This document shows, piece by piece, positions 40,741 through 56,976 of a DNA stretch of 64,000 bases. This DNA is from Escherichia phage PJNS034. A program made the translations under genes and the position numbers. Positions within the stretch are counted from its first letter, which is position 1. Each line of letters opens with the position of its first letter. The stretch lies in the sequence record PP391266.1; one strand, written 5' to 3'. The notes beneath the pieces are model-generated. The model was not told the origin of the DNA. It worked only from the letters and a program-made list of their open reading frames with translations, and did not search any database.

Positions 40741-42240
40741 TTAATAAGCGTTATTGAAGTTATTCCAGTTGTCATTATAACTCATTGAGCCATTAAGTCC
40801 AGCATGTTCTGAAATACCTCGATGGGTAACAGACAATGCTGCATAACGCATAGCATCCACAGAGTCATCTTCGACCTTTTTAATCTTACCTTCTTTACGT
40901 TGGTAAGAGCGCATTTCTTCGAAGATTTTATGACAAGTGTTGAAGATTTTGAATCGACCGGTTTTCATTCGCTGGAGAATTTCCATGATGCCGGGTTCAA
41001 CAAAGTTATTTTTCTTCCCATCAAACCCGATTGGGTTGTAGAAAGTGTCTGGCTGTACGTTCACACCAGCTTCACGATAGTACATAGCAACACTACGTCC
41101 AGAACCACGTTCAACGTTGTCAGCGTCGTGAGGCAGAACAACAGGAATCCAAGTCCCTCGTTGGTTAATGGCGTGTGCGTGGATGGCTGGGATGCCTTCG
41201 GCTGCTGCATAGTGGTCATAGATGTAAATCGTGTCTGTATCGACGTCATAAGCCGCCCAAGAAGCCGCAGTATCGTGGTTGATACCGATATCAACACCAC
41301 ATACACGAGGCCAATGGTCTGGAATTTTGAAGGGTTCCACCTTAATGGATTCTTCACTAACTGGATACACGAGTCCGCTCCCCAAGATTGGTAAACCTTT
41401 AGAACGCATGTCATGTTGCCACTCAGGAATAGACGCCAGAAGCTCTTTCTTCGTCTCTTCACTCAGGTGAGGTGCATCATCCCACGTTGCGTTCTGCCAA
41501 TACAGTGCTCCAGACTCATCATTCATGAACTTCTTAACCAGTTCAGTCAGACCGTTCTCAGGAGTAGCTGTGATAGTTACAAGACCGCCTGTAGTAGCTG
41601 TACGAGTAACACATTGTGCATAAATCTGCATTGAACGATAAGGGTCTTCTTCGTCAATCCAGATAAAATCAACTGTAGCACCCATCAGAACGTGTTCACC
41701 CTGCTGGGTAGAACGAAATTCGATAGTGCTGTAACCATCTTGACGTCCTTTCGCATCAAAATGCTTAATTCGACAGGCCAGAATACGTTGACCGTCTTTT
41801 GCCAGCGAATCAAAGTCGATATATTTCTTCGGAATAGCACCAGTACCAATAGCTTTTGTATCACGCACGTCAGCAGTACCGAACAATTCCTTCTGAAGCA
41901 CCTTCTGGGTTGATTCACCAGTAATACCAACACACCAAGCTAGAATCGGCTTCTCAAAACGATGCCCATCCCACCAATCCTTATATACGCCTGTAAGGTG
42001 CTGAGACACTTCCTGTGCCTCTGAAAAGGATTTACCAATACGGTTAGCTGCACAAAGAAAACGTCGCTTAAAACGCTTCCCAGCCGCATAGAAATCGCGT
42101 TGGAATTTGTAAGGTTTGAAGTAATCCAGCGAGTTGTAGCGTTGATACTGCTCTCGCATCTGGATTAGCTCCAGTAACTCAATCTTGTCGTCAGGAGATA
42201 AGGCTGACAGGTCGAGTCCTTGCAGAATTTCATCAATCAT
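40741..42240 (-). CDS. terminase large subunit
   Basis: 499 aa; Walker A CAANRIGKS, Walker B DFIWIDEE, C-terminal RNase-H-like nuclease block GVDIGINHD. Confidence 0.85.
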   Translation of the reverse strand: MIDEILQGLDLSALSPDDKIELLELIQMREQYQRYNSLDYFKPYKFQRDFYAAGKRFKRRFLCAANRIGKSFSEAQEVSQHLTGVYKDWWDGHRFEKPILAWCVGITGESTQKVLQKELFGTADVRDTKAIGTGAIPKKYIDFDSLAKDGQRILACRIKHFDAKGRQDGYSTIEFRSTQQGEHVLMGATVDFIWIDEEDPYRSMQIYAQCVTRTATTGGLVTITATPENGLTELVKKFMNDESGALYWQNATWDDAPHLSEETKKELLASIPEWQHDMRSKGLPILGSGLVYPVSEESIKVEPFKIPDHWPRVCGVDIGINHDTAASWAAYDVDTDTIYIYDHYAAAEGIPAIHAHAINQRGTWIPVVLPHDADNVERGSGRSVAMYYREAGVNVQPDTFYNPIGFDGKKNNFVEPGIMEILQRMKTGRFKIFNTCHKIFEEMRSYQRKEGKIKKVEDDSVDAMRYAALSVTHRGISEHAGLNGSMSYNDNWNNFNNAY

Positions 42241-42463: not shown

Positions 42464-42919
42464 TTAGTTACTTTCTGGAACAGCAACAGTCAGCTTAATA
42501 CCAGCCAACTTGTCTGCAATCATCTTGTCCAGCTCTTCAGCAGTCAGTTCTTCATCATTCTTAATGTCCACTTCAACAGAAGCAGCTTTAGGATAGACGA
42601 TATCGACCAGCTTCATAGCAGCCATCAGACGCTCTTTAGGAGTAGCTGTGGGGCTTTCCATCACATCAATGAGGTATTCATCAGGGCGAATACGAGCGTT
42701 TGCTATAGCGTCTAACATTTGCTGTGTGAGCTTGTTACGGGAGCCTTTCTTACGACCGCGACCAAAATTATTGCCGGGTAAGAAGGTGTTTTTGACAAGA
42801 TTTCGACCTTTCGAGCAGGGATGGCCTTCTTCACTGAAAAATTCAATGGTTTTGCCTTTATACTCGTCTCCTACGCTGAGATGAGAGTAATCATCCACAT
42901 AAGTCTTTTCATTAGACAT
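42464..42919 (-). CDS. putative terminase small subunit
   Basis: 151 aa, basic GRGRKKGSRNK region, first gene of late arm. Confidence 0.4.
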   Translation of the reverse strand: MSNEKTYVDDYSHLSVGDEYKGKTIEFFSEEGHPCSKGRNLVKNTFLPGNNFGRGRKKGSRNKLTQQMLDAIANARIRPDEYLIDVMESPTATPKERLMAAMKLVDIVYPKAASVEVDIKNDEELTAEELDKMIADKLAGIKLTVAVPESN

Positions 42920-42920
42920 T

Positions 42921-43048
42921 CATGCCACCTAATAATGGGGTTAGTTGAAAGATACACTGTAAGATGGAACCATTCATGCCAGTTCATCTACATGCCATGT
43001 CATAAGTATACACTGATAAGAGGCTATCATGCCACCTCATACATGCCA
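42921..43048. repeat. five direct repeats of CATGCCA (minus strand TGGCATG) upstream of terS
   Basis: Copies at 42921, 42975, 42991, 43028, 43042 with similar flanks. Confidence 0.55.
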
Positions 43049-43103
43049 GTCCATACTTCTGTGGGGATATAGGTAAGAGATGCTACATCTTACACTACTT
43101 ATA

Positions 43104-43125
43104 CCTATTATTTCCCTTCGGAATA
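43104..43125 (-). promoter_or_regulatory. conserved intergenic element, copy D (inverted)
   Basis: Minus strand reads TATTCCGAAGGGAAATAATAGG; contains TATTCC-GAAG-GGAATA hairpin. Confidence 0.4.
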
Positions 43126-43793
43126 TAATGTTTAGGGTACAGGAAGAAGTGCCATATGACAAGACTTATTTACCAATTGAATTACAAATTCAGTGAATTT
43201 ATAAGTGTGAGATAACAAAGTGTGGATATTGCTCACTTTTTAACCAGAAACGTAAATTTCACTTGAGCGGTATGTGGCATATCAGCTTTAGCATAATGTT
43301 CAAAAAGGGGGAACGGGTTCCGCTCATGTTCCGGCGTGTGAATGAGGCGTGTAGACTACCACTAGCCCCTACCCTGAGTCAATACCCTCACTGGTCTGAT
43401 GAGTGTGACTGCTCAAGTAGTAACCGTGTGATGCCGTGTGATGAGTACCCATCGTGCATAGTTATTCATGATAATTTATTTTTGGATAGCCTGAATAAAT
43501 AATAGCCAGTGACCCGTTAGAATCTGCGTGCGTGTCTGATACTGCCTGAGTTATACCTCCATAACGCCAACGTTTAAACGGTGTATTGATAACGGGTAAC
43601 AAGCCAGCGACAAGTGAATAAATATTCCAAGAGATAGCATATCTAATCAATCTATCTTCTCTTTATTCCTTTTACAGTGTAATTCTTATTTGTTTATAAG
43701 TAATAATTCTCCTCGACCTATTGACAATTACCGTCGAGTAAATTACGCGTGTGTTTCATTACGTCTTAAAGAAATGATTTGTTTGTTTTGCTA

Positions 43794-43821
43794 TTGACTT
43801 TTTAACTCATTCGTTTAATAT
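43794..43821 (+). promoter_or_regulatory. sigma70-like promoter candidate
   Basis: TTGACT, 16-17 nt spacer, TAATAT. Confidence 0.4.
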
Positions 43822-43876
43822 AGCTCCCCGTTGAAACGCAGAACATCGCGGAGTAAACAAGTTAATCACTAAGTGG

Positions 43877-43905
43877 TTGACTGAATCGGGTTAGTATGTT
43901 TTAAT
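43877..43905 (+). promoter_or_regulatory. sigma70-like promoter candidate
   Basis: TTGACT, 17 nt spacer, TTTAAT. Confidence 0.35.
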
Positions 43906-44086
43906 GCTTACCGATTCAAACGCTCTTTAAAAATGTGGTCTGTCTTTAGGTGGTGTTTAACATCATTACTACAAGGCGCTTAGTTAGTTATCTGGTTTTG
44001 ATTCCTGTTTCATTAGTGATTCAGGCGGATTGATAAAGCATCTTCAATAAGTCTTTAACAGTTCGATACTTCGAAGAAATTAACGA

Positions 44087-44114
44087 TTGACAGCGTACTA
44101 GATTCCTGTAAGAT
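44087..44114 (+). promoter_or_regulatory. sigma70-like promoter candidate
   Basis: TTGACA, 16 nt spacer, TAAGAT. Confidence 0.4.
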
Positions 44115-44232
44115 AGACCACGTTTTAACGCTCTTTAACAATATGAATCATTAACGCTTAAACGTTAGTTTAATCAGACGTTATCAAGTGAAGCTGAAAA
44201 GTAACACGATAACAAATGATGAAAATAAACGG

Positions 44233-44260
44233 TTGACAGCGTGAAATGATTCGGTATAAT
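44233..44260 (+). promoter_or_regulatory. strong sigma70-like early promoter
   Basis: Consensus TTGACA, 16 nt spacer, consensus TATAAT, about 480 nt upstream of first early gene. Confidence 0.6.
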
Positions 44261-44741
44261 GAGCGCCATCGAATGACAGAACGTTGTCAGACGATAGCCG
44301 GATAAGTGGATAACTTATAACGGCAGTTCGATAAAGTAGTGTGGTAGCGGGTAGCGGTATGTAACACGGATAATCTACGGATTAACGGCTTATTTGTTGC
44401 TTGCTTAAAGCATAAAACGTCGGGCGGCACGATGGGAGAAGTGCATAAAATCAATTAGGCTCCCTGACTCTTTAACAATTAGGAAACTACGCACCACAAT
44501 TAACGTTGGATAACGTAAAGAGTGGGTTAATTTAGGGTGATTCCCTGCGTAGGCTTGTCGAGCTGATAACAGCGGTATGTGATGGACGCTTATATACTCC
44601 CTCCATGATAGTGTATGACTGATTCCACCTAGGCCAAAGTGAAAGGGCGATAACGAATAGCAAGTAACAATCTCGTTTGATATGGGCATTTAATAGTGAG
44701 TGTCCAGATTAAACGATAAAACTGAATTGAGGATTAAACCT

Positions 44742-45323
44742 ATGTCTATCTTAATTGCTGACCTGATTCGTAACGCTGACGGTGTTAACTCTCTGGCTGA
44801 CTCTATCCAGTCCGAAGGTAAAAAGCTGGATAACATGATTCATCTGGCGCTGGCTTCTGCTACTGTTCTGGTGCATGAGCATGGCGATGTTACCGTGTTA
44901 AACCGTGTCATTAACAAGCTGTCTTCTGGTGTCCGTACCAATGCGGCTCGTGCTTTCGCTGAAACTTTCGCTCCGGTAACTTTCGATAAGAAAGCAAAAG
45001 AGTTCCGCTTCAACAAACACAAACGCAATGAAGCATTCATTGACAGTGAAGCGGCGAAAGAAATGTGTGAAACTGTCTGGACTAAATTCCGTCCTGAGCC
45101 TGAGTATAAGCCAATGAATCTGGCTGACTCTTTCACTAAGCTGATTGACCGTGCCGCTAACGATATGGATAAGAACGACACCATTTCCGAAGCACAAATC
45201 GCTCTGCTGCGCTCTTTCCAAGAGCAATTGGTAACACTCCAGACCAAAGAAGCGGCTGAACGTGATGCGGCAAAGGCACAAGCTGCAATCGCTGACGCTC
45301 CGGCTGAGGAAGTAGCGGCATAA
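44742..45323 (+). CDS. first early protein (hypothetical)
   Basis: 193 aa from ATG with RBS GAGGA. Confidence 0.5.
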   Translation: MSILIADLIRNADGVNSLADSIQSEGKKLDNMIHLALASATVLVHEHGDVTVLNRVINKLSSGVRTNAARAFAETFAPVTFDKKAKEFRFNKHKRNEAFIDSEAAKEMCETVWTKFRPEPEYKPMNLADSFTKLIDRAANDMDKNDTISEAQIALLRSFQEQLVTLQTKEAAERDAAKAQAAIADAPAEEVAA

Positions 45324-45348
45324 GATAGGCGATAGTCTATAAACATCT

Positions 45349-45387
45349 AGCCCCTTGCATTGAATAAATGTGAGGGGCTTTTTGTTT
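45349..45387 (+). terminator. rho-independent terminator
   Basis: AGCCCCT-N17-AGGGGCT followed by TTTTTGTTT. Confidence 0.55.
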
Positions 45388-45396
45388 ATGTACTGA

Positions 45397-45717
45397 ATGG
45401 AATTAATCCGCATGACTCCTTTACAGATTAGACGTAACGCCAAACGTAAGGCGGCAGCAATGAAACAAGTTGTAACTCTCAAGTCTAAGCGTGAGAAAAC
45501 TTTACTCATTACTCCACCTGACGATGTTAAAAAGATTGTGGATAACTTTAAGTTCCCATCTGGTAAAACGTTTCGGGCTGTTCCCACTCGCAACAAAGGC
45601 ACTGATGCGAAAGGTGCTAGCAGTGCTGATAAGATTGCTTGCCGTGGTAAACAGAAGTGTAAAGGGTCTAGCGTTAGGCCGTCTGGTTGGTATAGCAAGT
45701 CACAATTAGCGGGGTAA
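45397..45717 (+). CDS. hypothetical basic protein
   Basis: 106 aa, Lys/Arg-rich. Confidence 0.35.
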   Translation: MELIRMTPLQIRRNAKRKAAAMKQVVTLKSKREKTLLITPPDDVKKIVDNFKFPSGKTFRAVPTRNKGTDAKGASSADKIACRGKQKCKGSSVRPSGWYSKSQLAG

Positions 45718-45718
45718 C

Positions 45719-45979
45719 ATGGCTGCGGGATATTTAGGCGGTGATTGTGTACACGGTGAGATTCAAGCCGTTGTAGATAACGCCGTTGACTTTGCCCGTT
45801 CTCAATTGAATTGTGGCGAGTCAGAAATGTTTTGTCTTGAATGTGATGAAGAAATCCCACAAGCAAGGCGTGAGGTTGCGAAAGGCTGCAAGTATTGTAT
45901 TACCTGCCAGTCTAAGCACGATAGAAAACAAGCCAGCCAATTCAACAGGCGAGGCAGTAAAGATAGTCAATTGAGGTAA
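45719..45979 (+). CDS. TraR/DksA-family C4 zinc-finger protein
   Basis: CLEC-x17-CITC spacing matches TraR/DksA C-x2-C-x17-C-x2-C finger. Confidence 0.5.
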   Translation: MAAGYLGGDCVHGEIQAVVDNAVDFARSQLNCGESEMFCLECDEEIPQARREVAKGCKYCITCQSKHDRKQASQFNRRGSKDSQLR

Positions 45980-45983
45980 TAGA

Positions 45984-46565
45984 ATGAGTCAGTGGTCTGA
46001 GTTTTACAAAGGGCGTCTAGGTGGACGCTATCAAGCCCACGTTTTAAAGCAGTATGCCCCATTCATCAATCGAATCATTCAGGCTGGGCGTGGTATCAGT
46101 TCGCCAGTGGTTAACTTCCGTGAGGAGGGCGCTGGTATTGGTACGGTTACGGCTATCCTGCAACAATATGCTGAGTCTCGCTTTGACTTAGACAACTGGA
46201 AGTTTGAAATGGTTGACCGTTGCCCTGAAATGGCTGAGTTAGCTTTTCAAAATACCGGTGTACGCTGTGAGATATTCGATATCCTTAAACGGCGTGAAAT
46301 GCTGGATTCTTTACGGCCTCACATTATCCATTCTCATGGTGTACTTGAACACTTCGAGGACGATGATATACGGGCAATCATTGACAATCAGCGTACACTT
46401 GCAAAGTCTTGTGTAATTGCATACGTTCCCACTAACGGCTATGAAAAGCCTAGCTTCGGTGATGAACGGCTCTTAGATGTGAAACATTGGGTCAAAGAGT
46501 TTAGACCTACAGATGTTCACGCTTTCAACAATGGCTGCGACCTGATGCTTTACTGGCGGGCGTAG
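45984..46565 (+). CDS. putative SAM-dependent methyltransferase
   Basis: 193 aa; FREEGAGIG resembles class-I MTase motif I, acidic FEMVD motif II; substrate unknown. Confidence 0.35.
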   Translation: MSQWSEFYKGRLGGRYQAHVLKQYAPFINRIIQAGRGISSPVVNFREEGAGIGTVTAILQQYAESRFDLDNWKFEMVDRCPEMAELAFQNTGVRCEIFDILKRREMLDSLRPHIIHSHGVLEHFEDDDIRAIIDNQRTLAKSCVIAYVPTNGYEKPSFGDERLLDVKHWVKEFRPTDVHAFNNGCDLMLYWRA

Positions 46566-46568
46566 TTT

Positions 46569-46580
46569 ACTACTGTGACG
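46569..46580 (+). repeat. 12-mer ACTACTGTGACG, copy 5
   Basis: Exact, 3 nt after stop of methyltransferase-like gene. Confidence 0.9.
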
Positions 46581-46688
46581 GGTGGCTCTTATGGTCGAGT
46601 ATGGTGAAGAAGATTTTGTTAAGGCGGCTAATCGCTTCTGGCTTTGGGTCGCTATCGTTGGGACTGTAATTATCTGGGCGGTGTGCTG

Positions 46689-46886
46689 ATGGAAGTATTA
46701 ACAATGTTCGCTGTGTTCGTCATAGAGCTTCTCTGGGTGCATCCTATGGCATTCTTCGCAGACTTAGGTGCTGCGGGTCACTTTGGCTGGTCTTTGGCCT
46801 TCCTGATGGTGTACGGGCTGTTTATCGCTACGTTGCCATACAATATCCTCAAGCTATTCATTAAACGTAAGGAAATCCCTGCATGA
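46689..46886 (+). CDS. small membrane protein
   Basis: About 65 aa, two hydrophobic helices; start uncertain. Confidence 0.35.
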   Translation: MEVLTMFAVFVIELLWVHPMAFFADLGAAGHFGWSLAFLMVYGLFIATLPYNILKLFIKRKEIPA

Positions 46887-47209
46887 TTACTATCGGAGAC
46901 CGTGTACTGTATCGTTATTCACCTGCTGGCTTACCTGTGTATGGTGTGGTAGCTGATGTGTTTCAAGGTGTTGCGGCTGTAAGGGTTAACATTGAGAACC
47001 CAAACCAGACAAGAAGCGGCACTAAGGCGCTAGTCATGTATCGTAAGGTGGAAAGCTGGGAGCCTTTGAGTGAGAAGTCGCCTCTTCACGATGATTTTGT
47101 GTTGCTTGTACTGCCTCATAACGTTCGTATTTGGATTGTTAAGCAGTTGAAACGACACTCCGTAACACCCGTCATGCTTGAAAAGCTGATGGATATGAGC
47201 CGAGTTTAA
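46883..47209 (+). CDS. hypothetical protein
   Basis: 108 aa ORF, ATGA overlap. Confidence 0.4.
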   Translation: MITIGDRVLYRYSPAGLPVYGVVADVFQGVAAVRVNIENPNQTRSGTKALVMYRKVESWEPLSEKSPLHDDFVLLVLPHNVRIWIVKQLKRHSVTPVMLEKLMDMSRV

Positions 47210-47217
47210 TCCGGCTA

Positions 47218-47246
47218 TTGACAACCTTCGGATGTGACGGTAAGCT
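47218..47246 (+). promoter_or_regulatory. weak sigma70-like promoter candidate
   Basis: TTGACA, 17 nt spacer, TAAGCT (poor -10). Confidence 0.3.
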
Positions 47247-47263
47247 AAGCCCAAGCGTCCGAA

Positions 47264-47331
47264 GGGAATATTACTAAGAAATAATATAAGAAAGATTATA
47301 TCTAACTATATTACTTCTTATTAATATTCCC
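47264..47331 (+). repeat. long inverted repeat: 17-bp stem (1 mismatch) with 34-nt AT-rich loop
   Basis: GGGAATATTACTAAGAA ... TTCTTATTAATATTCCC; left arm overlaps conserved element copy C. Confidence 0.55.
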
Positions 47332-47349
47332 TTACTTATTGGAGGAGTT

Positions 47350-47436
47350 ATGTTATCTCTTATCAAACTTCATCAAGATAAACTAATCATTGCACTGGTT
47401 GTGATTCTGTCCTGCTTGAACATGGATGGTGTGTGA
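47350..47436 (+). CDS. small hydrophobic peptide (28 aa)
   Basis: Strong RBS GGAGGAG then ATG; MLSLIKLHQDKLIIALVVILSCLNMDGV; TGATG coupling to next gene. Confidence 0.3.
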   Translation: MLSLIKLHQDKLIIALVVILSCLNMDGV

Positions 47437-47792
47437 TGCAGGGTGTTTATCTTAAACCTCGCATTCAAGACCACATTAAAGCGACTCTGGACTTTCACTC
47501 TGCGGGTGGCAAGATTAACGAGGTGATGGTGTTGGAGTTGTGTGATGTGATGCTGACCTTCGGCATATGTCTGCGAAATCATCCACCAGAAGCTCAAGGA
47601 CAGGCTCTAAAGGGTTGCGCTAGGGAAATGCTCAAGCGGATTAAATATCCTGCCCTGCGTATTCTGGTGCGTAAAATGCTAGTGCCTTTCGCTTTACCTA
47701 AAGGTGTGTTTAACGAGTTGGAACACATCATGGAATCCTGCATCAACGGGATGAATGAAACAACTCACCAAACGATTGAACAAAAGGATTAA
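47436..47792 (+). CDS. hypothetical protein
   Basis: 118 aa ORF. Confidence 0.4.
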   Translation: MQGVYLKPRIQDHIKATLDFHSAGGKINEVMVLELCDVMLTFGICLRNHPPEAQGQALKGCAREMLKRIKYPALRILVRKMLVPFALPKGVFNELEHIMESCINGMNETTHQTIEQKD

Positions 47793-47796
47793 TAAC

Positions 47797-48051
47797 ATGG
47801 CTAAGATTGCAACTGTGTGGTTTAACAAAACTGGTACTAACACTGTGTACCTCAAGCTGAATGGTAAGCTGCACAAGACTGAGGTGACTATCCCTCGTAC
47901 TCACCTTATCAGCGGTCACATGCTAAATGATGCTGTTAAGAAGAAGCTGGTCGAAGAAGCGATTCGTGCTGACCTCGGCTGTGGCGTAGTTATCGCTGAC
48001 AACCTCAAGAACTATCAACACAATGGGGTACGCTTCCAGTATGGAAAATAA
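47797..48051 (+). CDS. hypothetical protein
   Basis: 84 aa from ATG with RBS AAGGA. Confidence 0.4.
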   Translation: MAKIATVWFNKTGTNTVYLKLNGKLHKTEVTIPRTHLISGHMLNDAVKKKLVEEAIRADLGCGVVIADNLKNYQHNGVRFQYGK

Positions 48052-48052
48052 A

Positions 48053-48469
48053 ATGAAGCGTGTGCTTAACCTGTCTGCCGATAAGGTGAACGGGTATGTG
48101 TTTAAAGATAGCCCGTCTATCTACTGGTCATGGTGGCATGTATTGCTCACCGTGGCCTTTGTTGTATTGGTGGTGTTCGCTTTGTGTGCTCCATTCAGTA
48201 AGGCACACGCTGCATCATTCCCTGCTGGTGAGCATTTACAATGCCGCATTGAATTAGAAAGTGTTGGTGGTGGTCGTAAGCTGACGTTTAAATCTTACGA
48301 TGATTCACACATCAAACTTGCTAATAGTAATACTCTGGTGCTTCGCGGTGATGCTCAAGTGCCTGAGTCAACTGTTAACCTGAACAATGGTGAGTTGTTC
48401 GCAACAAGGGGTAGCTGGACTTATCGCGGCCTCTGTAAAAACGTAGATAATATCAGGATAAACCCATGA
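48053..48469 (+). CDS. membrane-anchored protein (N-terminal TM)
   Basis: TM segment WSWWHVLLTVAFVVLVVFALCAPF then soluble domain. Confidence 0.4.
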   Translation: MKRVLNLSADKVNGYVFKDSPSIYWSWWHVLLTVAFVVLVVFALCAPFSKAHAASFPAGEHLQCRIELESVGGGRKLTFKSYDDSHIKLANSNTLVLRGDAQVPESTVNLNNGELFATRGSWTYRGLCKNVDNIRINP

Positions 48470-48789
48470 AAAAGATTTTTACTACTGTGACGATTCTGGC
48501 TGGCCTGTTTGCTTCATCGGCTAACGCCTTTGTTTGCACTGGTACTGCTACCCATAAAGACGGTGGCACGGCTGACATTATCGTTAACACCAACGATATG
48601 GTGTTTGATGATGCTGTCGGTCTGTATCGTGCTGAAACTCAGTGGCATCCTAAGCTGGCCTCTACGCTGTATGTAGACCAGTCTGAAAAGACAATCGAAG
48701 GTGTTGGCTTCCGTGGCATGTACACCGCCGTAGCAGTCGATAGCAAAGACGTTATCATGATTGCTGACGACCTTGTTTGCTATGAGTAA
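48466..48789 (+). CDS. secreted/periplasmic protein (signal peptide)
   Basis: MKKIFTTVTILAGLFASSANA-F: Sec signal with AxA cleavage site. Confidence 0.45.
   Translation: MKKIFTTVTILAGLFASSANAFVCTGTATHKDGGTADIIVNTNDMVFDDAVGLYRAETQWHPKLASTLYVDQSEKTIEGVGFRGMYTAVAVDSKDVIMIADDLVCYE
48481..48492 (+). repeat. 12-mer ACTACTGTGACG, copy 6
   Basis: Exact, codons 6-9 of signal-peptide protein. Confidence 0.9.
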
Positions 48790-49174
48790 ACTTGAGTGGG
48801 CTTGGTATATCTTTGCAATTACTGCCATAGTTGCATGGGGTGTATGGCTCAATAGTCTGCTGTAAGCTGCCTAATGCCTGCCTCATTGGTGGGCATTGTG
48901 AAGCATACCGCTTCAAACAACATTCTCATTAATTCCCTTTAGGGACTATCGCTATGTCTGAATGGCAATCCGATAGCCAACTTGGAACCTGTCCGTGAGT
49001 TGAAAAGAATCCTCTATATGAGGGGTTTTGGGATAAGTAACGCAATATGGTAATCAACCTCAGGGGTGGGGTTGGTTATCTAAGTGTGTTTACGGAAATC
49101 ATTGGTCATTGAGCTAAAGTACCAGTGGTAACTGATAAGCATACTTAGACAACCAACTAAATAAGGAATCCCCA

Positions 49175-49453
49175 ATGAAAAGAATTGCAATGCTGTTAAG
49201 TGCTGTAATGCTGACTGGCTGTGTATCACTGACTGAGCAGACTGATAAAGAGTTGTGCTTTGGTTATGGTCGTGCTGAGTCAGAAGCGATGCGTGATGCT
49301 ATCTTGCAAGAGATGCAAGAGCGTCAGGATGCTGGTATGTTCCCGATTGCTATCGAGGAATGTAAGAAGCAAGTGTTTCGTGGTATTCAATCACGGAATG
49401 AATCAAACCTTCTATCTGCGAGCATGATTGGTGCTCGTTACCAACAACAATAA
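49175..49453 (+). CDS. lipoprotein
   Basis: MKRIAMLLSAVMLTGC lipobox (L-T-G-C); 92 aa. Confidence 0.5.
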   Translation: MKRIAMLLSAVMLTGCVSLTEQTDKELCFGYGRAESEAMRDAILQEMQERQDAGMFPIAIEECKKQVFRGIQSRNESNLLSASMIGARYQQQ

Positions 49454-49463
49454 GGATGTAACA

Positions 49464-49913
49464 ATGTCTCAAGTTCTGAATGATGTAAACCGCAGCTTTG
49501 GTTATGAGTTCTACGAAGAATCAAAAGCTCTGTCTGGTGTTCAAGGCTATCTGGCTGACCAGCCTAAGTTTCGTGTGTTCCTCAAGCTGCGTCGTCGCAT
49601 GATTGAAGGTGAACTGCGTCAACTGAAAGTGATGCTGAAAACTGCCTCTGGTCTGGATGCTGCCGCTATCTACAAGCTGCGCTCTGCACTGAAAGATGAT
49701 TTGCGTCGTATCGGTCAGCAACTGAAAGACCTGCGACTGCATACGCTGGGTGCTAAGAAAGCAGAAGCACAGCGTTACCTGAACGTAATGGCAATGCACG
49801 ACCAGTGTGAGAAGGTCGGTGTTGATGGTACAAAACTCCTGAATGAAGTACATGCTGAAATTCAGGCTCGTAAGGCTTTGGATAATGAGTCTCGCAAACT
49901 GGTTTCTGAATAA
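49464..49913 (+). CDS. hypothetical protein
   Basis: 149 aa from ATG with RBS AAGGATG. Confidence 0.4.
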   Translation: MSQVLNDVNRSFGYEFYEESKALSGVQGYLADQPKFRVFLKLRRRMIEGELRQLKVMLKTASGLDAAAIYKLRSALKDDLRRIGQQLKDLRLHTLGAKKAEAQRYLNVMAMHDQCEKVGVDGTKLLNEVHAEIQARKALDNESRKLVSE

Positions 49914-50102
49914 GATGGAAGCAGGGGTTGATTTGACCCCTGTTAAAAATGTAGGGCTGGTTAAGGCCAGCACCTCACACAATGGCGGCGTTAACTTATC
50001 TGAGAAAGAACGTTATCGTCGTCGTGAATTATCTGGAGGGATTGCTGAGCATCATTGCACACATCCCGGTTATCAAATCTTCCCTTCATAAGAGAGTACA
50101 AA

Positions 50103-50774
50103 GTGAAACGTCCTGAAACTGCAATCCGACCGTTTATGAAGTCCAGCATTGAGAAGCTGGAAGCTGGTCAACTGTTCTATGTTCGCAATGAGAAAGGTAG
50201 TGGTTATCGTCCTCGTTGCTTTGTTGGTGTGTTGCCTGATGGTAAGACGTATCAGTATCAGTCTTACATGAACAACGATATCTTTGATTCGGTTTATGAA
50301 GAACCGCATCTTGACGACCAGCCTGTGTTTGTCCCGAAACCATTTGCAATGAAAATCATGCAACGTGGTAAGGCACTGGCTGAGGAAGTTGCTGAGGTAT
50401 TCAGCGAGATTCCAGCGAACGAAATTCAACGTTCGAATCTGGATGAACTGTTCGACCGTCTGCCTGATGAAGTTATCGACTACGACGCTTATGAAGCGAT
50501 TCGTCAGGCTGTACGTCGTTTGGGTTGGCAGGACGCATCAATTGTTCGTCGTCAGAATGGCGGCTGGATGGTTGATGATGAAGCGTTTGAATATATGTAC
50601 AACGCTGTGACTGGCAAGGCTGAGCGTGAAGCAGCGGATACTACTGTGACGATTGCTCCGGTGGTTGATGTGGTTGATAGCTCGATTAGCCGACCAAAAG
50701 CTAATTCATTCGTTAAGAAGCTGAGCGGTTTCTTGTTTGGTAATTCTAAGCAAGGGGATAGCTGCGGCATCTAA
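50103..50774 (+). CDS. hypothetical protein
   Basis: About 223 aa; start uncertain (GTG 50103 or ATG 50136); contains in-frame 12-mer. Confidence 0.4.
   Translation: MKRPETAIRPFMKSSIEKLEAGQLFYVRNEKGSGYRPRCFVGVLPDGKTYQYQSYMNNDIFDSVYEEPHLDDQPVFVPKPFAMKIMQRGKALAEEVAEVFSEIPANEIQRSNLDELFDRLPDEVIDYDAYEAIRQAVRRLGWQDASIVRRQNGGWMVDDEAFEYMYNAVTGKAEREAADTTVTIAPVVDVVDSSISRPKANSFVKKLSGFLFGNSKQGDSCGI
50640..50651 (+). repeat. 12-mer ACTACTGTGACG, copy 7
   Basis: Exact, within ORF 50103-50774. Confidence 0.9.
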
Positions 50775-50785
50775 ACGGTGATTGT

Positions 50786-51235
50786 ATGAGTGTTGCAGCA
50801 ACAGCAGCATTTCTGTGTATGACGTTAGTTATTCACGAAGAAGCACGAGGCGAGCCTATCGCTGTGAAATACGAGGTAGGCCACGTGGTGAAGAATCGGA
50901 TGGATTCACGCCAGTATCCAGATACATGCGAGGCGGTTGTACTGCAACCCAAACAGTTCTCGTGGACAAAAACAAAAGGTGTACAAGATGAGTACGATTT
51001 GCGACAACGTTATTATCGCGTCCTTGACTCGCTCGACACTCCCCAAAAGCGACTTTCGTTTGCTGCTTCTCAAAGAGCGGCAGATGAAGTGCTCAGTGGT
51101 AAGCATAAATCTCGAATCGGAGCTGCGCTCCACTTCGTTACTCGCGGTCACTCAACTCATTGGGCGTCCAAATTTAAACGCCATACTATAGCAGGTATGG
51201 ATTTCCTACTCCCAAGGAAGAAGAAAAATGCTTAA
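50786..51235 (+). CDS. cell-wall hydrolase, SleB/CwlJ-like (Hydrolase_2 family); candidate endolysin
   Basis: HEEARGEPIAVKYEVGHVVKNRM...YPDTCEAVVLQPKQFSW matches Hydrolase_2 signature. Confidence 0.55.
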   Translation: MSVAATAAFLCMTLVIHEEARGEPIAVKYEVGHVVKNRMDSRQYPDTCEAVVLQPKQFSWTKTKGVQDEYDLRQRYYRVLDSLDTPQKRLSFAASQRAADEVLSGKHKSRIGAALHFVTRGHSTHWASKFKRHTIAGMDFLLPRKKKNA

Positions 51236-51431
51236 ATGGCTGTTCCGTCAGGGAAAAGACCTGAACTCTATTCTGGCTCCGCTTCGTAAGATGAAGCTGG
51301 AACTGGAAGAACGCCTCCACAAGAATGCTGATGATATTGTGGAAGCACAAAAGACCATCACCGAAAAGACCAAAGAAAATGGTTCTATTGGTGAAGCCCT
51401 GCAAACTGACCTGTTCAAATCTATCAAGTGA
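51228..51431 (+). CDS. hypothetical small protein
   Basis: 67 aa; RBS AGGAAG. Confidence 0.35.
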   Translation: MLKWLFRQGKDLNSILAPLRKMKLELEERLHKNADDIVEAQKTITEKTKENGSIGEALQTDLFKSIK

Positions 51432-51442
51432 GACAAACGACT

Positions 51443-52360
51443 ATGATTCGCACCCCATTCGGTAACTTCTCTGGTAAGACTATCGGTATCACTGCTGGCG
51501 TGATTGTGTTCCTCTTCATCCTGCTGCTGTTGAAGCCGTTCAAAGTTATCTCTGACACCGAGGAGGGTGTGCAGAAGTCGTGGTCAGGCCAGATTTACAG
51601 TCAACCAATGACTGCTGGCTTCCACTGGATGAACCCGTTCAACAGCGTCACAACGTTCCCAATGACGTATAAGAACGTTCAACTGACAAATATCGGCGTT
51701 CCTGCTCAGGACGGTTTCAAAACCACGATGGATATCAGCGTAACTGGTAAATTTATTCCGGGCATGACCCCTGCTGTCCTGAAGTCTACCGGTAATTCTG
51801 AACAGTTTGCAGCAGTGCATATCTCTAAACGTATCACAGCTAAGCTGATTGATGCTGGTAAGAAGCACGCTGTAATCAGTCAGAACTTCTACGATGAAAG
51901 CACTCTGAACAAAGTTCGTGAAGAAATCATCGTAACGGCTAACCAAGAGCTTGAGCCTCTGGGTTGGAAAGTGACTGCGGTTGAAATCAGCAACATCGAC
52001 CTGCCGGACGTTATCAAGAACGCTATCAGCGAGTCCAAGGTTCGTGCTGAACAGGTTAAGCGTCAGAAAGAATCCTTAGCAATTGCTGCTCTGAAAGCAC
52101 AAGAGATTGAGAAAGTTGCAGAGTCTAACTCTAAAGCAACTATCCTCGATGCTGATGCTAACGAGTACAAAGCTAAGAAAGAAGCTGATGCTAAAGTGTA
52201 TGCTGCTGCTCAGGAAGCAAAAGGTAACAAAGAAGTTGCTGCCTCTGTAACTCCTGCTCTGGTTGAATACATGAATGCTCAAGCTAAGATGAAGTGGGAT
52301 GGTCAGATGCCAACAACGAATGTTGGTTCTAACACTCCTGTCATCATGAGCATGAAGTAA
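51443..52360 (+). CDS. SPFH/band-7 (HflK/HflC-like) membrane protein
   Basis: N-terminal TM, SPFH core ...VTAVEISNIDLPDVIKNAISE..., C-terminal Ala/Lys coiled-coil. Confidence 0.5.
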   Translation: MIRTPFGNFSGKTIGITAGVIVFLFILLLLKPFKVISDTEEGVQKSWSGQIYSQPMTAGFHWMNPFNSVTTFPMTYKNVQLTNIGVPAQDGFKTTMDISVTGKFIPGMTPAVLKSTGNSEQFAAVHISKRITAKLIDAGKKHAVISQNFYDESTLNKVREEIIVTANQELEPLGWKVTAVEISNIDLPDVIKNAISESKVRAEQVKRQKESLAIAALKAQEIEKVAESNSKATILDADANEYKAKKEADAKVYAAAQEAKGNKEVAASVTPALVEYMNAQAKMKWDGQMPTTNVGSNTPVIMSMK

Positions 52361-52368
52361 TATACTCA

Positions 52369-52393
52369 AGCCCATCTATATGGTGGGCTTTAT
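52369..52393 (+). terminator. terminator/attenuator hairpin in conserved cassette
   Basis: stop-TATACTCAAG, AGCCCATC-TATAT-GGTGGGCT, TTTATGAAT. Confidence 0.45.
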
Positions 52394-52730
52394 GAATGTT
52401 ACTTAAACGAGGAACTAAAAGATGTTTGAATTTATCGGTGATTGTATTGCAACAACACTCAAGGCTGGATTGGGTGTGGTATTCATTGTGCTTATCTGGG
52501 TTGGCTTCCAGATGGCATGGAACTGGACGCTTGACCGTATTCGCTGGGGATTCAAATGAAAATTGAGTTCACTGGAATGAAAGGTGGTCAGCATTGCTTC
52601 AAGAAAGGGGCATTGACTTACCGCTTTAGCGAGGACGAACTCGCACAAATCGTTGGCTATGCTGTACGTATGGCAAAGGCTAACAACAACAAAACCCTGA
52701 AACAAACTAACTCCAAAAAGGACAAATGAA

Positions 52731-54128
52731 ATGCCAATCGTAACTATCGTAACTAACCGTAATAACTCTGAAACTAAGCGTGTTGAAGCTCAGTCAGGCG
52801 GTTGCTTCGGCTTTATGGCATCAACCTCTTTCTTCCGTGACCATCGCCGCGATGTTGAGTACGTTGGTTATCATATGGAGTCATCCAATCAGGCTAAGCA
52901 TTGTAGCGAAGTCTTTGATGGTAAGAATAAGTTATTCCCGTATCACAAATTCATGACCAACAATGAGTTCCATGCTATGTTCGGTGAGAACTTTGTGGAT
53001 ACTCGCCACGGTACTGTTAGTCACCACGGTTATGTGGTTGTTGAAATGCAGCCAGAAGGTTTTGAAGGTGTTGGTATTCCACAGGACATGTTCATCTCTG
53101 GTCTGTTCACTGCTCGTCAGTTGAGCTATGGCCTGTATCCGAACATGCGTGACACCATTAAGAAAGGTGTTCACCCAATGATGGCTTACGTTATCAGTGA
53201 GCTGATTCAGTGGGAAGATACAAGCACTGCTCTTGCTGCACAGCTTCGCTGGAAACGTCAGCGTGTTAGTTCTTCCAACATCGACAGCACAGCGTTCGGT
53301 AAGAAGAACCTGATTAACATGTTCAACTGCCTGAAAGGTAAGAAGCATGTGCCTTACTTCGGTCACGAAGGTGGCATCATTCAGCGTGGTGGTTACAAGC
53401 GTGACCATAACTTCAACACCTCTGCTGATAATCGTCCGGGTATTTATCAGACAATCACGGCGAACATGAACACTTCATCTGCACCGATTGAAGCTGATGA
53501 ACCAATCATCAACCCGTTCCACTTCTCTCCAGCTTACCTCGGTCATGTACTGAATGAACTGCTGGGTTGTGAAGTATTTGATATGTCGAAGATGCTTGAC
53601 CGTCAGGGTATGAAAGTTAACCCAAAATCTTCGGTGTACAAGTTCTACCAGATGCGTGATGTGAAGTTCCGTAAGTCATATCGAAAAGGTGATATGGTTG
53701 AAGTTCGTGCTGATATGTTCGGTGCTGACCAGTACATCAACCGTCACAACACTCCGCTGAGCAATCTGGTTTCTTATCGTCATGGTGAGAACAACACCAC
53801 TAACCGTGTTGGTTTCGTACCGGTTAAGACTCATGTTGAGAAGGTCAGCGTGAAGAACGGTGTGGAAAGCGTTAAGCTGGAAAACGGTTGCTGGGTATCT
53901 CCACGTTACATCAAAACTGCTGGTACTCATGCGGTTGAAGGTGTGAAGATTCAGGCAGGTACTGACACTCCGGTAAATGCACTGTATACAGTTCGTAATT
54001 CAAAAGAAGTGTATGCTGCACGTACCTTTGACTTGTTCGAAGCATCTGTTCGACTGATTCAGGTTACTGGTAACAGTATCGGTCAAGAGATTATCAAGCG
54101 TCCACGTGACCTGATTCCAGCGCTCTAA
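52731..54128 (+). CDS. hypothetical protein (first gene of amidoligase module)
   Basis: 465 aa; no motif recognised. Confidence 0.45.
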   Translation: MPIVTIVTNRNNSETKRVEAQSGGCFGFMASTSFFRDHRRDVEYVGYHMESSNQAKHCSEVFDGKNKLFPYHKFMTNNEFHAMFGENFVDTRHGTVSHHGYVVVEMQPEGFEGVGIPQDMFISGLFTARQLSYGLYPNMRDTIKKGVHPMMAYVISELIQWEDTSTALAAQLRWKRQRVSSSNIDSTAFGKKNLINMFNCLKGKKHVPYFGHEGGIIQRGGYKRDHNFNTSADNRPGIYQTITANMNTSSAPIEADEPIINPFHFSPAYLGHVLNELLGCEVFDMSKMLDRQGMKVNPKSSVYKFYQMRDVKFRKSYRKGDMVEVRADMFGADQYINRHNTPLSNLVSYRHGENNTTNRVGFVPVKTHVEKVSVKNGVESVKLENGCWVSPRYIKTAGTHAVEGVKIQAGTDTPVNALYTVRNSKEVYAARTFDLFEASVRLIQVTGNSIGQEIIKRPRDLIPAL

Positions 54129-54282
54129 TGGGTATTAATAAGACCATGACTACAGCGTTCTTTATCCTCGCTGTAGCATCGCCAATACTTGCCTGTTTCA
54201 ATACAACAGCAGCAGCATTTAGTGCTGGCATGGCTGTCTTCGCAATGCTTTGTTATGTTGTAGCGAACGGTTGATATACTCA

Positions 54283-54312
54283 AGGTCATTCACAAAGTGA
54301 GTGGCCTTTATG
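54283..54312 (+). terminator. terminator/attenuator hairpin in conserved cassette
   Basis: stop-TATACTCAAG, GGTCATTCAC-AAA-GTGAGTGGCC, TTTATGAAT. Confidence 0.45.
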
Positions 54313-54360
54313 AATATCATCTGCCAATAACGGCAACTTAAACTGAACGAGGAAACTACT

Positions 54361-55518: not shown

Positions 55519-55542
55519 TTTAAACTGAACGAGAGAACTAAA

Positions 55543-56975: not shown

Positions 56976-56976
56976 C

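What the first reader, a model, noticed from the sequence alone, without database searches (positions are those of the whole stretch)
43550..44700. 1.1-kb AT-rich non-coding hub with multiple sigma70-type promoters and short repeat families
Between the divergent late and early arms there is no convincing ORF but at least four plus-strand promoter-like elements, including a consensus TTGACA-16-TATAAT at 44233-44260. The region also holds repeated CTCTTTAAC(A)A (43921, 44123, 44467), at least five TTAACG and about seven GATAAC motifs. This resembles a host-RNAP early promoter array and could also contain a replication origin or regulator-binding iterons.
Basis: partly seen in the sequence, partly recalled or inferred. 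Interest (0 to 1): 0.5.

Follow-up and report, generated by a model that had tools for sequence, protein, structure and literature searches.

The report
Phage early promoters with boxA antiterminators
The "non-coding hub" is the early control region of a virulent coliphage. It holds tandem host-type promoters, each followed by a copy of the bacterial rRNA-operon boxA antitermination signal, and it drives a long, conserved, highly folded untranslated RNA that includes a 185-nt RNA module shared with unrelated phiEco32-like phages.

Summary
The gap is non-coding, somewhat AT-rich, and larger than reported (42920-44741). It contains a perfect TTGACA-16-TATAAT promoter.

The "CTCTTTAAC(A)A repeat" is the Nus-factor boxA element of rRNA operons. 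There are three copies (43922, 44130, 44467), all on the early strand. Two match the published consensus GYTCTTTAANA exactly, and these are the only exact matches in 64 kb.

The same promoter-then-boxA units are conserved in five relatives of this phage and occur 3-5 times in every phiEco32-like Kuravirus fetched. Phage T7 has the same layout: promoters A1-A3, then boxA.

Between boxA1 and boxA2 lies a 208-bp insert that four relatives lack. It is about 75% identical to Kuravirus non-coding DNA and folds into a covariation-supported RNA (49 pairs, 12 with compensatory changes). No Rfam family matches it.

The 475-nt leader downstream of the strongest promoter is also structurally conserved.

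I found no evidence for an origin or DNA iterons.

Best reading: a T7-like, rrn-mimicking early transcription unit using Nus/boxA antitermination, plus an accessory, horizontally exchanged structured RNA of unknown role.

Transcription starts, Nus dependence and RNA processing are inferred, not shown.

The parts
42920..44741 (.). Whole non-coding gap between the late (minus) arm and the early (plus) arm
   Evidence: ORF list and sequence. Gaps of equivalent length (1573-1661 nt) occur in TacPo2 and in the Logan contigs L030-L032.
43877..43905 (+). Promoter P1: TTGACT-17-TTTAAT with an extended -10 TG (TGtTTTAAT). The predicted start lies about 10 nt before boxA1.
   Evidence: Conserved as TTGAC(T/G)-17-TTTAAT in the window, L001, L030, L031 and L032. 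Read directly from the sequence. The start site is not mapped.
43922..43933 (+). boxA1 (GCTCTTTAAAAA)
   Evidence: Exact match to GYTCTTTAANA. 18/20 identical to the T7 boxA flank. Same sequence as Kuravirus boxA copies.
43936..44120 (+). 185-nt structured RNA module. The closing stem pairs 43936-43951 with 44105-44120; there are 8 helices in all.
   Evidence: About 75% identical to non-coding DNA of 43 Kuravirus records. Of 49 pairs, 98.4% of cells are paired and 12 pairs carry compensatory changes, against 0-2 in slid controls and 0/500 shuffles. MFE -53 kcal/mol, z = -3.3. The covariance model scores 176.7 bits, with a single copy in the window.
43922..44129 (+). 208-bp insert (boxA1 plus module) bounded by boxA direct repeats. 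It is absent from TacPo2 and L030-L032.
   Evidence: Deleting it restores collinearity with TacPo2. The model finds no copy in L001 or L030-L032, and finds the 3' part in the truncated contig L033.
44087..44114 (+). Promoter-like site P2 (TTGACA-16-TAAGAT, 10/12), inside the 3' part of the module
   Evidence: also present in L033. The homologous Kuravirus sequence TTGAAA..AAAGAC is not promoter-like, so its function is uncertain.
44130..44141 (+). boxA2 (GCTCTTTAACAA), 12/12 identical to E. coli rrn boxA
   Evidence: The extended form GCTCTTTAACAATATGAATCATTAAC is invariant in six relatives and near-identical in Kuravirus boxA3.
44218..44267 (+). Promoter P3: an A-rich upstream element, TTGACA (44233) -16- TATAAT (44260), and the G+C-rich discriminator GAGCGCC
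   Evidence: 12/12 match. Conserved at 11-12/12 in all relatives. Aligns to T7 A3. Its upstream/-35 part resembles rrn P2 and its -10/discriminator part resembles rrn P1.
44268..44741 (+). Structured, untranslated leader of about 475 nt running from P3 to gene 1
   Evidence: Six-sequence alignment A6: 98 pairs, 94.7% paired, 26 pairs with changes on both sides, against 0-3 in slid controls and 0/500 shuffles. MFE z = -2.6.
44467..44478 (+). boxA3 (ACTCTTTAACAA), a weaker copy
   Evidence: One mismatch to the consensus. The core CTTTAACAA is conserved in all relatives. It is predicted to pair with the Shine-Dalgarno region 44728-44733, but those pairs are invariant, so this is untested.
44673..44716 (+). 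19-bp hairpin 26 nt upstream of the gene 1 start codon. Candidate RNase III site or mRNA stabiliser.
   Evidence: dG -21.1 kcal/mol, z = -6.5. Kept in TacPo2 and four other relatives with three compensatory pairs.
44742..45323 (+). Early gene 1 (phrog_1448, function unknown)
   Evidence: Homologues are first early genes of several T7-like phages.
45349..45379 (+). Strong intrinsic terminator directly after gene 1, which early transcription must read through
   Evidence: 13-bp stem followed by a T-run.
45412..45717 (+). Early gene 2: a 101-aa basic protein with an Arg/Lys-rich N-terminus. This is only a lead for an N-like factor.
   Evidence: Identical to a hypothetical protein of Escherichia phage PJNS034. 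A 14-aa local match to the lambda N C-terminus has E = 6e-4, but there is no Pfam or PDB-profile support.
45719..45979 (+). Early gene 3: DksA/TraR-type zinc-finger protein
   Evidence: Pfam PF01258, E = 1.9e-7; phrog_54, E = 8e-19.

Best explanation
The region is the early transcription control region of a virulent coliphage. The window encodes a protein identical to one of Escherichia phage PJNS034.

Proposed mechanism:
1. Host sigma70 RNA polymerase starts at two or three tandem rightward promoters: P1 (43877-43905), P2 (44087-44114, doubtful) and P3 (44233-44260, consensus).
2. Each transcript soon carries a boxA element (43922, 44130, 44467).
3. By analogy with rRNA operons, CRISPR arrays, lambda nut sites and the T7 early leader, boxA RNA recruits NusB/NusE and, with NusA, NusG and SuhB, converts the polymerase into a termination-resistant complex that also chaperones RNA folding.
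4. That complex can cross about 0.5-0.9 kb of untranslated, highly folded leader, pass the terminator after gene 1 (45349-45379), and continue into an early arm that has almost no internal sigma70 promoters.

The leader itself is functional RNA. The 475-nt segment from P3 to gene 1 has a conserved fold ending in a 19-bp hairpin just before the ribosome-binding site. That hairpin probably controls processing, stability or translation, like T7 R0.3.

The 185-nt module after boxA1 is an accessory, horizontally exchanged structured RNA. Its long closing stem starts 2 nt after boxA, the same arrangement as the rRNA leader-trailer helix. It may be excised by RNase III.

Shown here: the sequence elements, their conservation and the RNA covariation.
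Inferred: promoter use, Nus-factor binding, antitermination and RNA processing.
For: boxA statistics and identity:
- Three same-strand copies against 0.1 expected.
- The only two exact matches to the published consensus GYTCTTTAANA (PMC5725501) in the 64-kb window.
- boxA2 is identical to the E. coli rrn boxA.

Conservation:
- The promoter-then-boxA units are kept in TacPo2 and four Logan contigs.
- They recur 3-5 times, always co-oriented with the early genes, in 17 Kuravirus loci.
- T7 has A1-A3, then ACGCTCTTTAACAATCTGGT, and P3 aligns with T7 A3.

Need for read-through:
- A terminator sits at 45349-45379.
- Promoter-like sites are depleted in 44700-64000 (14 vs 30.9+-5.6), with none at 10/12 or better on the + strand.

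RNA structure: module; leader.

Non-coding status.

Context: a DksA/TraR gene lies in the same operon, and TraR homologues inhibit rrnB P1 (PMC9239242).
Against: - No transcription start, Nus-factor dependence or RNA species has been measured for this phage.
- The count of promoter-like hits in the region is not above chance.
- P1 has a T at the critical -11 position. P2 is not promoter-like in Kuravirus homologues.
- boxA3 deviates from the consensus here (A at position 1) and more so in four relatives (GTACTTTAACAA).
- The leader is G-rich rather than C-rich (208 G vs 153 C), so it is not an obvious Rho loading site.
- From textbook knowledge, rrn-type antitermination acts mainly on Rho-dependent terminators, so read-through of the intrinsic terminator at 45349 may need another factor.
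- The leader structure was predicted on the same six sequences used to count covariation.
- The module is missing from four relatives, so it cannot be essential to the core mechanism.
Confidence: 0.7

Rival explanations
1. Lambda-type, phage-factor-dependent nut sites. boxA works together with an adjacent boxB-like hairpin and a phage N-like protein. The candidate is gene 2: 101 aa, basic, with an Arg-rich N-terminus.
For: - Gene 2 has the size and charge of N proteins and sits early in the operon.
- Its C-terminus IACRGKQKCKGSSV matches lambda N ITCSGRQKIKGKSI (BLASTP E = 6e-4).
- That C-terminal motif is invariant in nine homologues.
- An intrinsic terminator follows gene 1. N-type complexes suppress intrinsic terminators better than rrn-type complexes do (textbook knowledge).
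Against: - No Pfam family matches.
- A profile of nine homologues finds no lambda N chain in the PDB at E <= 10.
- I spotted the similarity by eye, and it covers only 14 residues.
- No hairpin is shared by the three boxA copies or conserved next to boxA2 in relatives.
- Gene 2 lies downstream of the terminator it would have to overcome.
Confidence: 0.15
2. Nus-factor decoy. Massive early transcription of RNAs carrying several boxA copies titrates NusB/NusE away from host rRNA operons and helps shut the host down. Antitermination of phage transcripts would be secondary.
For: - There are multiple boxA copies behind strong promoters: 3 here and 3-5 in Kuraviruses.
- The promoters resemble rrn promoters.
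- A TraR-like inhibitor of rRNA promoters is co-encoded.
- From my own recollection, not verified here: competition for a host factor by over-transcribed boxA was reported for lambda.
Against: - Four relatives have only one exact copy plus one degenerate copy.
- Nothing here measures abundance.
- The placement of each boxA directly after a promoter and before long RNA is what a cis-acting signal needs.
Confidence: 0.08
3. Replication origin or DNA-level iterons. The repeats are binding sites for an initiator or repressor on double-stranded DNA.
For: - The region is the most AT-rich part of the window, and cumulative GC skew has its minimum near 43000.
- Short repeat families exist.
Against: - The significant repeat is strictly on one strand and identical to an RNA signal.
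- There is no DnaA box in the gap.
- There is no regularly spaced iteron family within 43550-44700.
- The skew switch coincides with the switch in gene orientation.
- Compensatory base changes show selection at the RNA level.
Confidence: 0.05
4. The folded leader is mainly a post-transcriptional control device for gene 1, acting through RNase III/RNase E processing, mRNA stability and masking of the ribosome-binding site. In this reading the boxA copies act as Nus-dependent translational or attenuation regulators, as in suhB, rather than as antiterminators for the whole arm.
For: - A conserved 19-bp hairpin lies 26 nt before the start codon.
- The boxA3 core is predicted to pair with the Shine-Dalgarno region.
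- BoxA-mediated repression of suhB is documented (PMC5725501).
Against: - The boxA copies lie 265-820 nt from the start codon, far beyond the 50 nt used for suhB-type sites.
- The boxA3-SD pairs never vary, so they carry no covariation support.
- The arm-wide lack of promoters argues for a processive signal.
Confidence: 0.12

Closest known systems
Phage T7 early control region (E. coli promoters A1, A2, A3, then boxA, then RNase III site R0.3 before gene 0.3)
   Same: - Tandem strong sigma70 promoters at the start of the early arm.
- An exact rrn-type boxA shortly downstream. The T7 sequence ACGCTCTTTAACAATCTGGT at nt 811-830 is 18/20 identical to the window's boxA1 flank.
- P3 and its upstream region are 27/34 identical to T7 A3.
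- A stable hairpin lies just before the first gene.
   Different: - T7 has one boxA and a leader of about 175 nt. This phage has three boxA copies, a leader of 0.5-0.9 kb with a conserved fold, and an extra 185-nt RNA module.
- The covariance model of the module does not hit T7.
- The genome here is about 65 kb with divergent arms and a T4-type terminase, so it is not a T7-like phage.
E. coli rRNA operon leader (P1/P2 promoters, boxB-boxA-boxC, leader-trailer helix cut by RNase III)
   Same: - boxA2 is 12/12 identical to the rrn boxA.
- P3 has a 16-bp spacer and a G+C-rich discriminator, TATAATGAGCGCCA, against rrn P1 TATAATGCGCCA.
- Its upstream/-35 part AAAATAAACGGTTGAC resembles rrn P2 AAAATAAATGCTTGAC.
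- A long helix starts right after boxA and closes a large structured RNA.
   Different: - There is no detectable homology beyond these short elements: blastn against 5,426 E. coli genomes finds nothing, and each local match is within the shuffle range.
- The product is a leader or non-coding RNA plus mRNAs, not rRNA.
- boxC and boxB equivalents were not identified.
phiEco32-like Kuravirus 'spacer region' with sigma70 early promoters
   Same: - A homologous 185-nt RNA module.
- The same order of elements: boxA, module, boxA(TATGAATCAT), strong promoter (..ATGATTC.TAATGAGC), boxA, long leader.
- A non-coding gap of 1.9 kb.
   Different: - The flanking genes are unrelated.
- The rest of the leader shows no sequence similarity.
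- Kuraviruses carry 3-5 exact boxA copies.
- The papers I could read describe only the promoters (PMC4281155). None that I could search mentions boxA or an RNA there. The two primary phiEco32 papers were not readable.
[quoted passage not shown]
   Same: A single rrn-type boxA without boxB or N protects a long untranslated RNA from Rho, or regulates a downstream gene (PMC7665894, PMC5725501).
   Different: Those are host loci with one boxA. Here the element is viral, multiplied, and coupled to strong promoters and structured RNA.
Lambda nut/N and HK022 put RNA antitermination
   Same: Cis-acting RNA signals placed just after early promoters make the polymerase termination-resistant. Lambda nut contains boxA.
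   Different: No conserved boxB and no verified N homologue were found. put RNAs are about 70-nt two-hairpin elements without boxA. The module here is 185 nt, follows a boxA, and is dispensable in relatives.

Membership tests
Nus-factor BoxA element (rrn type) | Sequence matches the gamma-proteobacterial consensus GYTCTTTAANA | tested here: met
   43922 and 44130 match exactly and are the only exact matches in 64 kb. 44467 has one mismatch. The consensus is taken from PMC5725501.
Nus-factor BoxA element (rrn type) | Lies on the transcribed strand, downstream of a promoter and upstream of long RNA | tested here: met
   All copies are on the + strand, 10-200 nt after predicted promoters, and precede 0.3-0.8 kb of ORF-free sequence. 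The promoters are predicted, not mapped.
Nus-factor BoxA element (rrn type) | Conserved in relatives at the same position | tested here: met
   boxA2 is invariant in six relatives. The boxA3 core is conserved. Kuraviruses have 3-5 copies.
Nus-factor BoxA element (rrn type) | Binds NusB/NusE and confers resistance to Rho termination | not testable with these tools
   This needs binding or ChIP assays and read-through assays in nus mutants.
Lambda-type nut site with N protein | A conserved boxB hairpin a few nucleotides from boxA | tested here: not met
   No hairpin is common to the three boxA copies or conserved after boxA2 in relatives.
Lambda-type nut site with N protein | A phage-encoded N homologue | tested here: inconclusive
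   There is a 14-aa match to the lambda N C-terminus with E = 6e-4, but no Pfam hit and no PDB-profile hit.
T7-type early control region | Tandem sigma70 promoters followed by boxA at the head of the early genes | tested here: met
   Direct comparison with NC_001604 nt 440-940 is.
T7-type early control region | An RNase III processing hairpin before the first gene | tested here: inconclusive
   A conserved 19-bp hairpin lies at 44673-44716. Cleavage cannot be tested here.
Any described RNA family (Rfam 15) | A covariance-model match to the module or the leader | tested here: not met
   Only tRNAs reach the gathering threshold. In 42900-44800 nothing scores below E = 0.6.
Replication origin | DnaA boxes, or regularly spaced iterons next to an AT-rich unwinding element | tested here: not met
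   There is no TTATNCACA in the gap. The repeat families are boxA copies and duplicated promoter flanks.
rrn P1-type (DksA/TraR-sensitive) promoter | 16-bp spacer, G+C-rich discriminator, A/T-rich upstream element | tested here: met
   P3 reads AAAATAAACGG-TTGACA-16-TATAAT-GAGCGCC. Its kinetic behaviour and response to TraR are not testable here.

The most novel reading that the evidence does not exclude
The 185-nt boxA-adjacent element may be a new class of mobile phage RNA. It would be a self-contained 'boxA + structured RNA' cassette that moves between unrelated coliphages by recombination at boxA. It would act either as an RNA-based enhancer of Nus-dependent antitermination (a protein-free counterpart of N, or a put-like element) or as an abundant non-coding RNA, excised by RNase III, that targets a host function specific to E. 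coli. More broadly, virulent phages of at least three lineages (the T7 group, Kuraviruses and this group) would mimic rRNA operon control regions, including promoter, boxA and leader helix, to capture the host's rRNA transcription machinery.
Probability: 0.25. Interest if true: 0.75.

Novelty: new variant of a known kind. Interest (0 to 1): 0.55.

Why it matters
Processive antitermination in phages is textbook for lambda, where it needs the N or Q proteins. N-independent use of the host's rRNA-type boxA system by virulent phages is barely studied, although the sequence sits in T7. Here it appears multiplied and conserved in two further phage groups. It is tied to long, covariation-supported leader RNAs and to a structured RNA module that is exchanged horizontally and that no RNA database describes.

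If the inference holds, three things follow:
- It explains how a promoter-poor early arm of at least 19 kb, possibly over 30 kb, is transcribed from one control region.
- It predicts that these phages depend on nusB, nusE and suhB, a host-factor vulnerability relevant to phage therapy and to resistance.
- It provides compact natural parts (strong promoter plus boxA) for expressing long non-coding RNAs.

It also supplies a well-defined new RNA motif for experimental study.

Tried and rejected
- **CsrA-sponge idea.** GGA is not enriched in the leader: 12.0 vs 11.3 per kb.
- **GATAA as a conserved RNA motif.** It is strand-biased here (10 vs 2), but counts in relatives range from 1 to 6.
- **Gene 2 as a ribosomal S10/NusE mimic.** Only one of nine homologues gives a sub-threshold Pfam hit, E = 0.03. 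Rejected.
- **Host origin of the module.** blastn finds no match in 5,426 E. coli genomes.
- **More diverse module homologues.**
  - Three IMG/VR pattern scans and one metagenome scan returned only Kuraviruses, plus one AT-rich false positive, L016.
  - A fourth IMG/VR scan, the search for related loci with gene 1, found nothing.
- **T7-like phages with a gene 1 homologue.** The two I fetched have no boxA.
- **A second module between boxA2 and P3.** A closing stem TATGAATCAT/ATGATTCATA is present, and weak model hits exist (E = 0.005-0.03). The covariation term is positive, meaning no support.
- **Leftward sigma70 promoter in 43300-43800.** Nothing convincing by eye.
- **Primary phiEco32 papers (PMC2587145, PMC3275717).** Not held in the library. 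I therefore cannot exclude that boxA was noted there.
Full report
**What is there**

The finding lies inside a 1.8-kb ORF-free gap, 42920-44741. To the left is a leftward late arm: a small ORF at 42464-42919 and the large terminase at 40741-42240 (Pfam Terminase_6N/6C). To the right is a rightward early arm beginning with the ATG at 44742.

GC content is 0.38-0.41 in the gap, against about 0.45 elsewhere in the window. No + strand ORF of 20 aa or more exists in 44034-44699. Relatives differ here by 1-2-nt indels.

The window encodes a protein identical to a 'hypothetical protein' of Escherichia phage PJNS034, from a 65.7-kb contig. In the annotated phage collection the only close relative is Pantoea phage TacPo2. 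Four more relatives with all or part of the gap were recovered from Logan assemblies (L030-L033).

**Checking the motifs**

- **Promoters.** The consensus promoter at 44233-44260 is real (12/12). The number of promoter-like sites, however, is not above chance: 6 found versus 9.1+-2.9 expected.
- **CTCTTTAAMAA.** It occurs three times (43923, 44131, 44468), always on the + strand, against 0.10 expected in 64 kb.
- **TTAACG.** The five copies form a local cluster only. The whole-window count is at chance.
- **GATAAC.** It is over-represented across the whole window (75 vs 27.8). The strand-biased GATAA excess in the leader is not reproducibly kept in relatives.

**Identity of the main repeat**

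With one more base on the 5' side, the repeat reads GCTCTTTAAAAA, GCTCTTTAACAA and ACTCTTTAACAA. The published gamma-proteobacterial boxA consensus is GYTCTTTAANA (Baniulyte et al. 2017, PMC5725501).

The first two copies match that consensus exactly and are the only exact matches in the window. The third has one mismatch. The second copy is identical over 12 nt to the boxA of an E. coli rRNA operon leader that I fetched for comparison.

BoxA RNA is the loading site for NusB/NusE. Together with NusA, NusG and SuhB, these make RNA polymerase resistant to Rho on rRNA and CRISPR transcripts (PMC7665894).

**Conservation of promoter-then-boxA units**

All relatives with a complete gap share four elements:
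1. TTGAC(T/G)-17-TGtTTTAAT, about 10 nt before a boxA (window 43877-43905).
2. An invariant GCTCTTTAACAATATGAATCATTAAC.
3. TTGACA-16-TATAAT-GAGCGCCA (P3).
4. A downstream boxA-like core, CTTTAACAA.

A 'distant' BLAST unexpectedly linked window 43921-44113 to non-coding DNA in 43 phiEco32-like phages. In all 17 Kuravirus loci fetched, a 1.9-kb spacer holds 3-5 exact boxA copies. These sit downstream of promoters that have an A-rich upstream element and read TTGACA-16/17-YATAAT-GAGCAC. All are co-oriented with the early genes.

The SU10 genome paper states that this spacer carries sigma70 promoters, as in phiEco32 (PMC4281155). No paper I could search mentions boxA there.

A sequence search of the literature showed that T7 itself has ACGCTCTTTAACAATCTGGT downstream of its A1-A3 promoters (PMC11863960; NC_001604). 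P3 with its upstream region aligns to T7 A3 at 27/34 identity, better than any of 200 shuffles. The boxA1 flank is 18/20 identical to T7.

Against the rrn leader, the five best local matches of the window's leader are the three boxA copies, the P3 upstream/-35 part (to rrn P2), and the P3 -10/discriminator part (to rrn P1). Each of these is too short to be significant alone.

**A structured RNA module**

TacPo2 and L030-L032 lack window 43922-44129. Removing these 208 bp, which are bounded by boxA direct repeats, restores collinearity with TacPo2.

The insert is the segment shared with Kuraviruses. I aligned 18 sequences: the window, 14 Kuraviruses, two divergent Kuraviruses (TH34 and Bas88) and one metagenome contig. 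The consensus fold has 49 pairs in 8 helices and begins 2 nt after boxA with a 14-pair closing stem (43936-43951 with 44105-44120).

Support for the fold:
- 98.4% of cells are paired, against 37-40% when partners are slid.
- 12 pairs carry compensatory double changes, against 0-2 when slid and 5.2+-1.4 in shuffles (0/500 reach the observed value).
- One hairpin loop is GNRA in five different spellings in 14 of the 15 Kuravirus-type sequences aligned.
- The window copy folds at -53 kcal/mol, z = -3.3.

A covariance model built from the alignment finds exactly one copy per genome. It finds none in TacPo2, L030-L032, T7 or the rrn leader, and it finds the 3' part in the truncated contig L033. Rfam has no matching family.

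The 10/12 'promoter' at 44087-44114 overlaps the module's 3' arm. It is not promoter-like in the Kuravirus homologues.

**The rest of the leader**

Six sequences covering the stretch from the P3 start to the gene 1 ATG give a consensus of 98 pairs. Of these cells 94.7% are paired, and 26 pairs have changes on both sides, against 0-3 when slid and 0/500 shuffles. There is a caveat: the structure was derived from the same small alignment.

The leader ends in a 19-bp hairpin (44673-44716; -21.1 kcal/mol, z = -6.5), 26 nt before the start codon.

**Context**

Gene 1 (phrog_1448) is followed by a strong intrinsic terminator at 45349-45379. The next 19 kb of the + arm is depleted in sigma70-like sites (14 vs 30.9+-5.6), with none at 10/12 or better on the + strand. 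Early expression therefore plausibly depends on read-through from the gap.

Gene 3 is a DksA/TraR zinc-finger protein. Phage TraR homologues inhibit rrnB P1 (PMC9239242). P3 shares the 16-bp spacer and G+C-rich discriminator typical of such promoters. Feedback shut-off of P3 by the TraR-like protein is therefore conceivable, but I did not test it.

**Mechanism proposed**

Host polymerase starts at the tandem promoters. boxA in the nascent RNA assembles a Nus-factor complex. That complex allows transcription through the long folded leader, past the terminator after gene 1, and along the promoter-poor early arm, and it may assist folding of the leader helices.

The module is accessory, since four relatives lack it. 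It has been exchanged between coliphage lineages, probably by recombination at boxA. Its role is unknown. A substrate for RNase III, a stable non-coding RNA, or an antitermination enhancer are the options.

**Rivals considered**

- **N-type system with gene 2 as the factor.** There is a 14-aa match to the lambda N C-terminus, but no profile support.
- **Nus-factor decoy.**
- **Post-transcriptional control of gene 1 only.**
- **Replication origin or iterons.** No DnaA boxes and no iteron family were found, and the main repeat is strand-specific.

**Verdict**

The 'early promoter array' reading is right. The 'origin/iterons' reading is unsupported. The repeat was not recognised for what it is.

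The architecture is a variant of a known kind, the T7/rrn-type boxA early region. What appears undescribed is the multiplied boxA copies, the long conserved leader fold, and the mobile structured RNA.

Noticed in passing
window 42917-43054: Four to five copies of CATNCATGCCA(S)NTNAT lie directly upstream of the first late-arm ORF. One copy overlaps that ORF's RBS and start codon. A 25-nt block at 42991-43015 is invariant in five relatives. This could be a late-promoter, activator or packaging-recognition repeat.
   Followed up: partly
window 43240-43325 (minus strand): A terminator-like hairpin with a T-run reads leftward (43325-43311) and is conserved in all five relatives. Just downstream of it on the minus strand is a 35-nt invariant block, 43240-43274. 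This suggests a short leftward transcript, or an attenuator ahead of the late genes in the style of lambda pR'-tR'. No convincing leftward sigma70 promoter was found.
   Followed up: partly
window 6138-6966: A tight cluster of ten tRNA genes (Pro, Tyr, Lys, Ser, Ile, Ser, Asn, Met, Trp, Gln) lies on the + strand. A 10/12 extended -10 promoter-like site sits just upstream at 6019-6048.
   Followed up: no
whole window: The hexamer GATAAC is 2.7-fold over-represented across the whole window: 75 vs 27.8+-5.4, with 0/100 shuffles reaching the observed count. The cause is unknown.
   Followed up: no
window 44700-64000: Sigma70-like promoter matches are strongly depleted in the early arm, 14 vs 30.9+-5.6. 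This is consistent with selection against internal host promoters.
   Followed up: no
window 45412-45717: Gene 2 encodes a 101-aa basic protein. Its N-terminus is Arg/Lys-rich (MTPLQIRRNAKRK) and its C-terminus ADKIACRGKQK.KG...PSGWYS.SQLAG is almost invariant in nine homologues. It has a short resemblance to the RNA-polymerase-binding C-terminus of lambda N and weak hits to phrog_6352/32970.
   Followed up: partly
window 44472-44477 with 44728-44733: The boxA3 core CUUUAA is predicted to pair with UUGAGG at the Shine-Dalgarno sequence of gene 1 in all six relatives. The pairs never vary, so there is no covariation test.
   Followed up: partly
L022 1786-2050 and L023 1786-2050 (Kuraviruses TH34 and Bas88): In these divergent Kuraviruses the module is shortened (one inner hairpin is replaced). 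It is followed by another boxA and then a small ORF found in no other Kuravirus examined. This suggests that boxA copies are mosaic joints where cassettes are swapped.
   Followed up: partly
L002 3698-3848, L023 2391-2542, L030-L032 from boxA to P3: The interval from boxA(TATGAATCAT) to the next strong promoter gives weak full-length hits to the module model (E = 0.005-0.03). It also has a 7-10-nt complement (ATGATTCATA) inside the next promoter's spacer and -10 region. It may be a degenerate paralogue of the module.
   Followed up: partly
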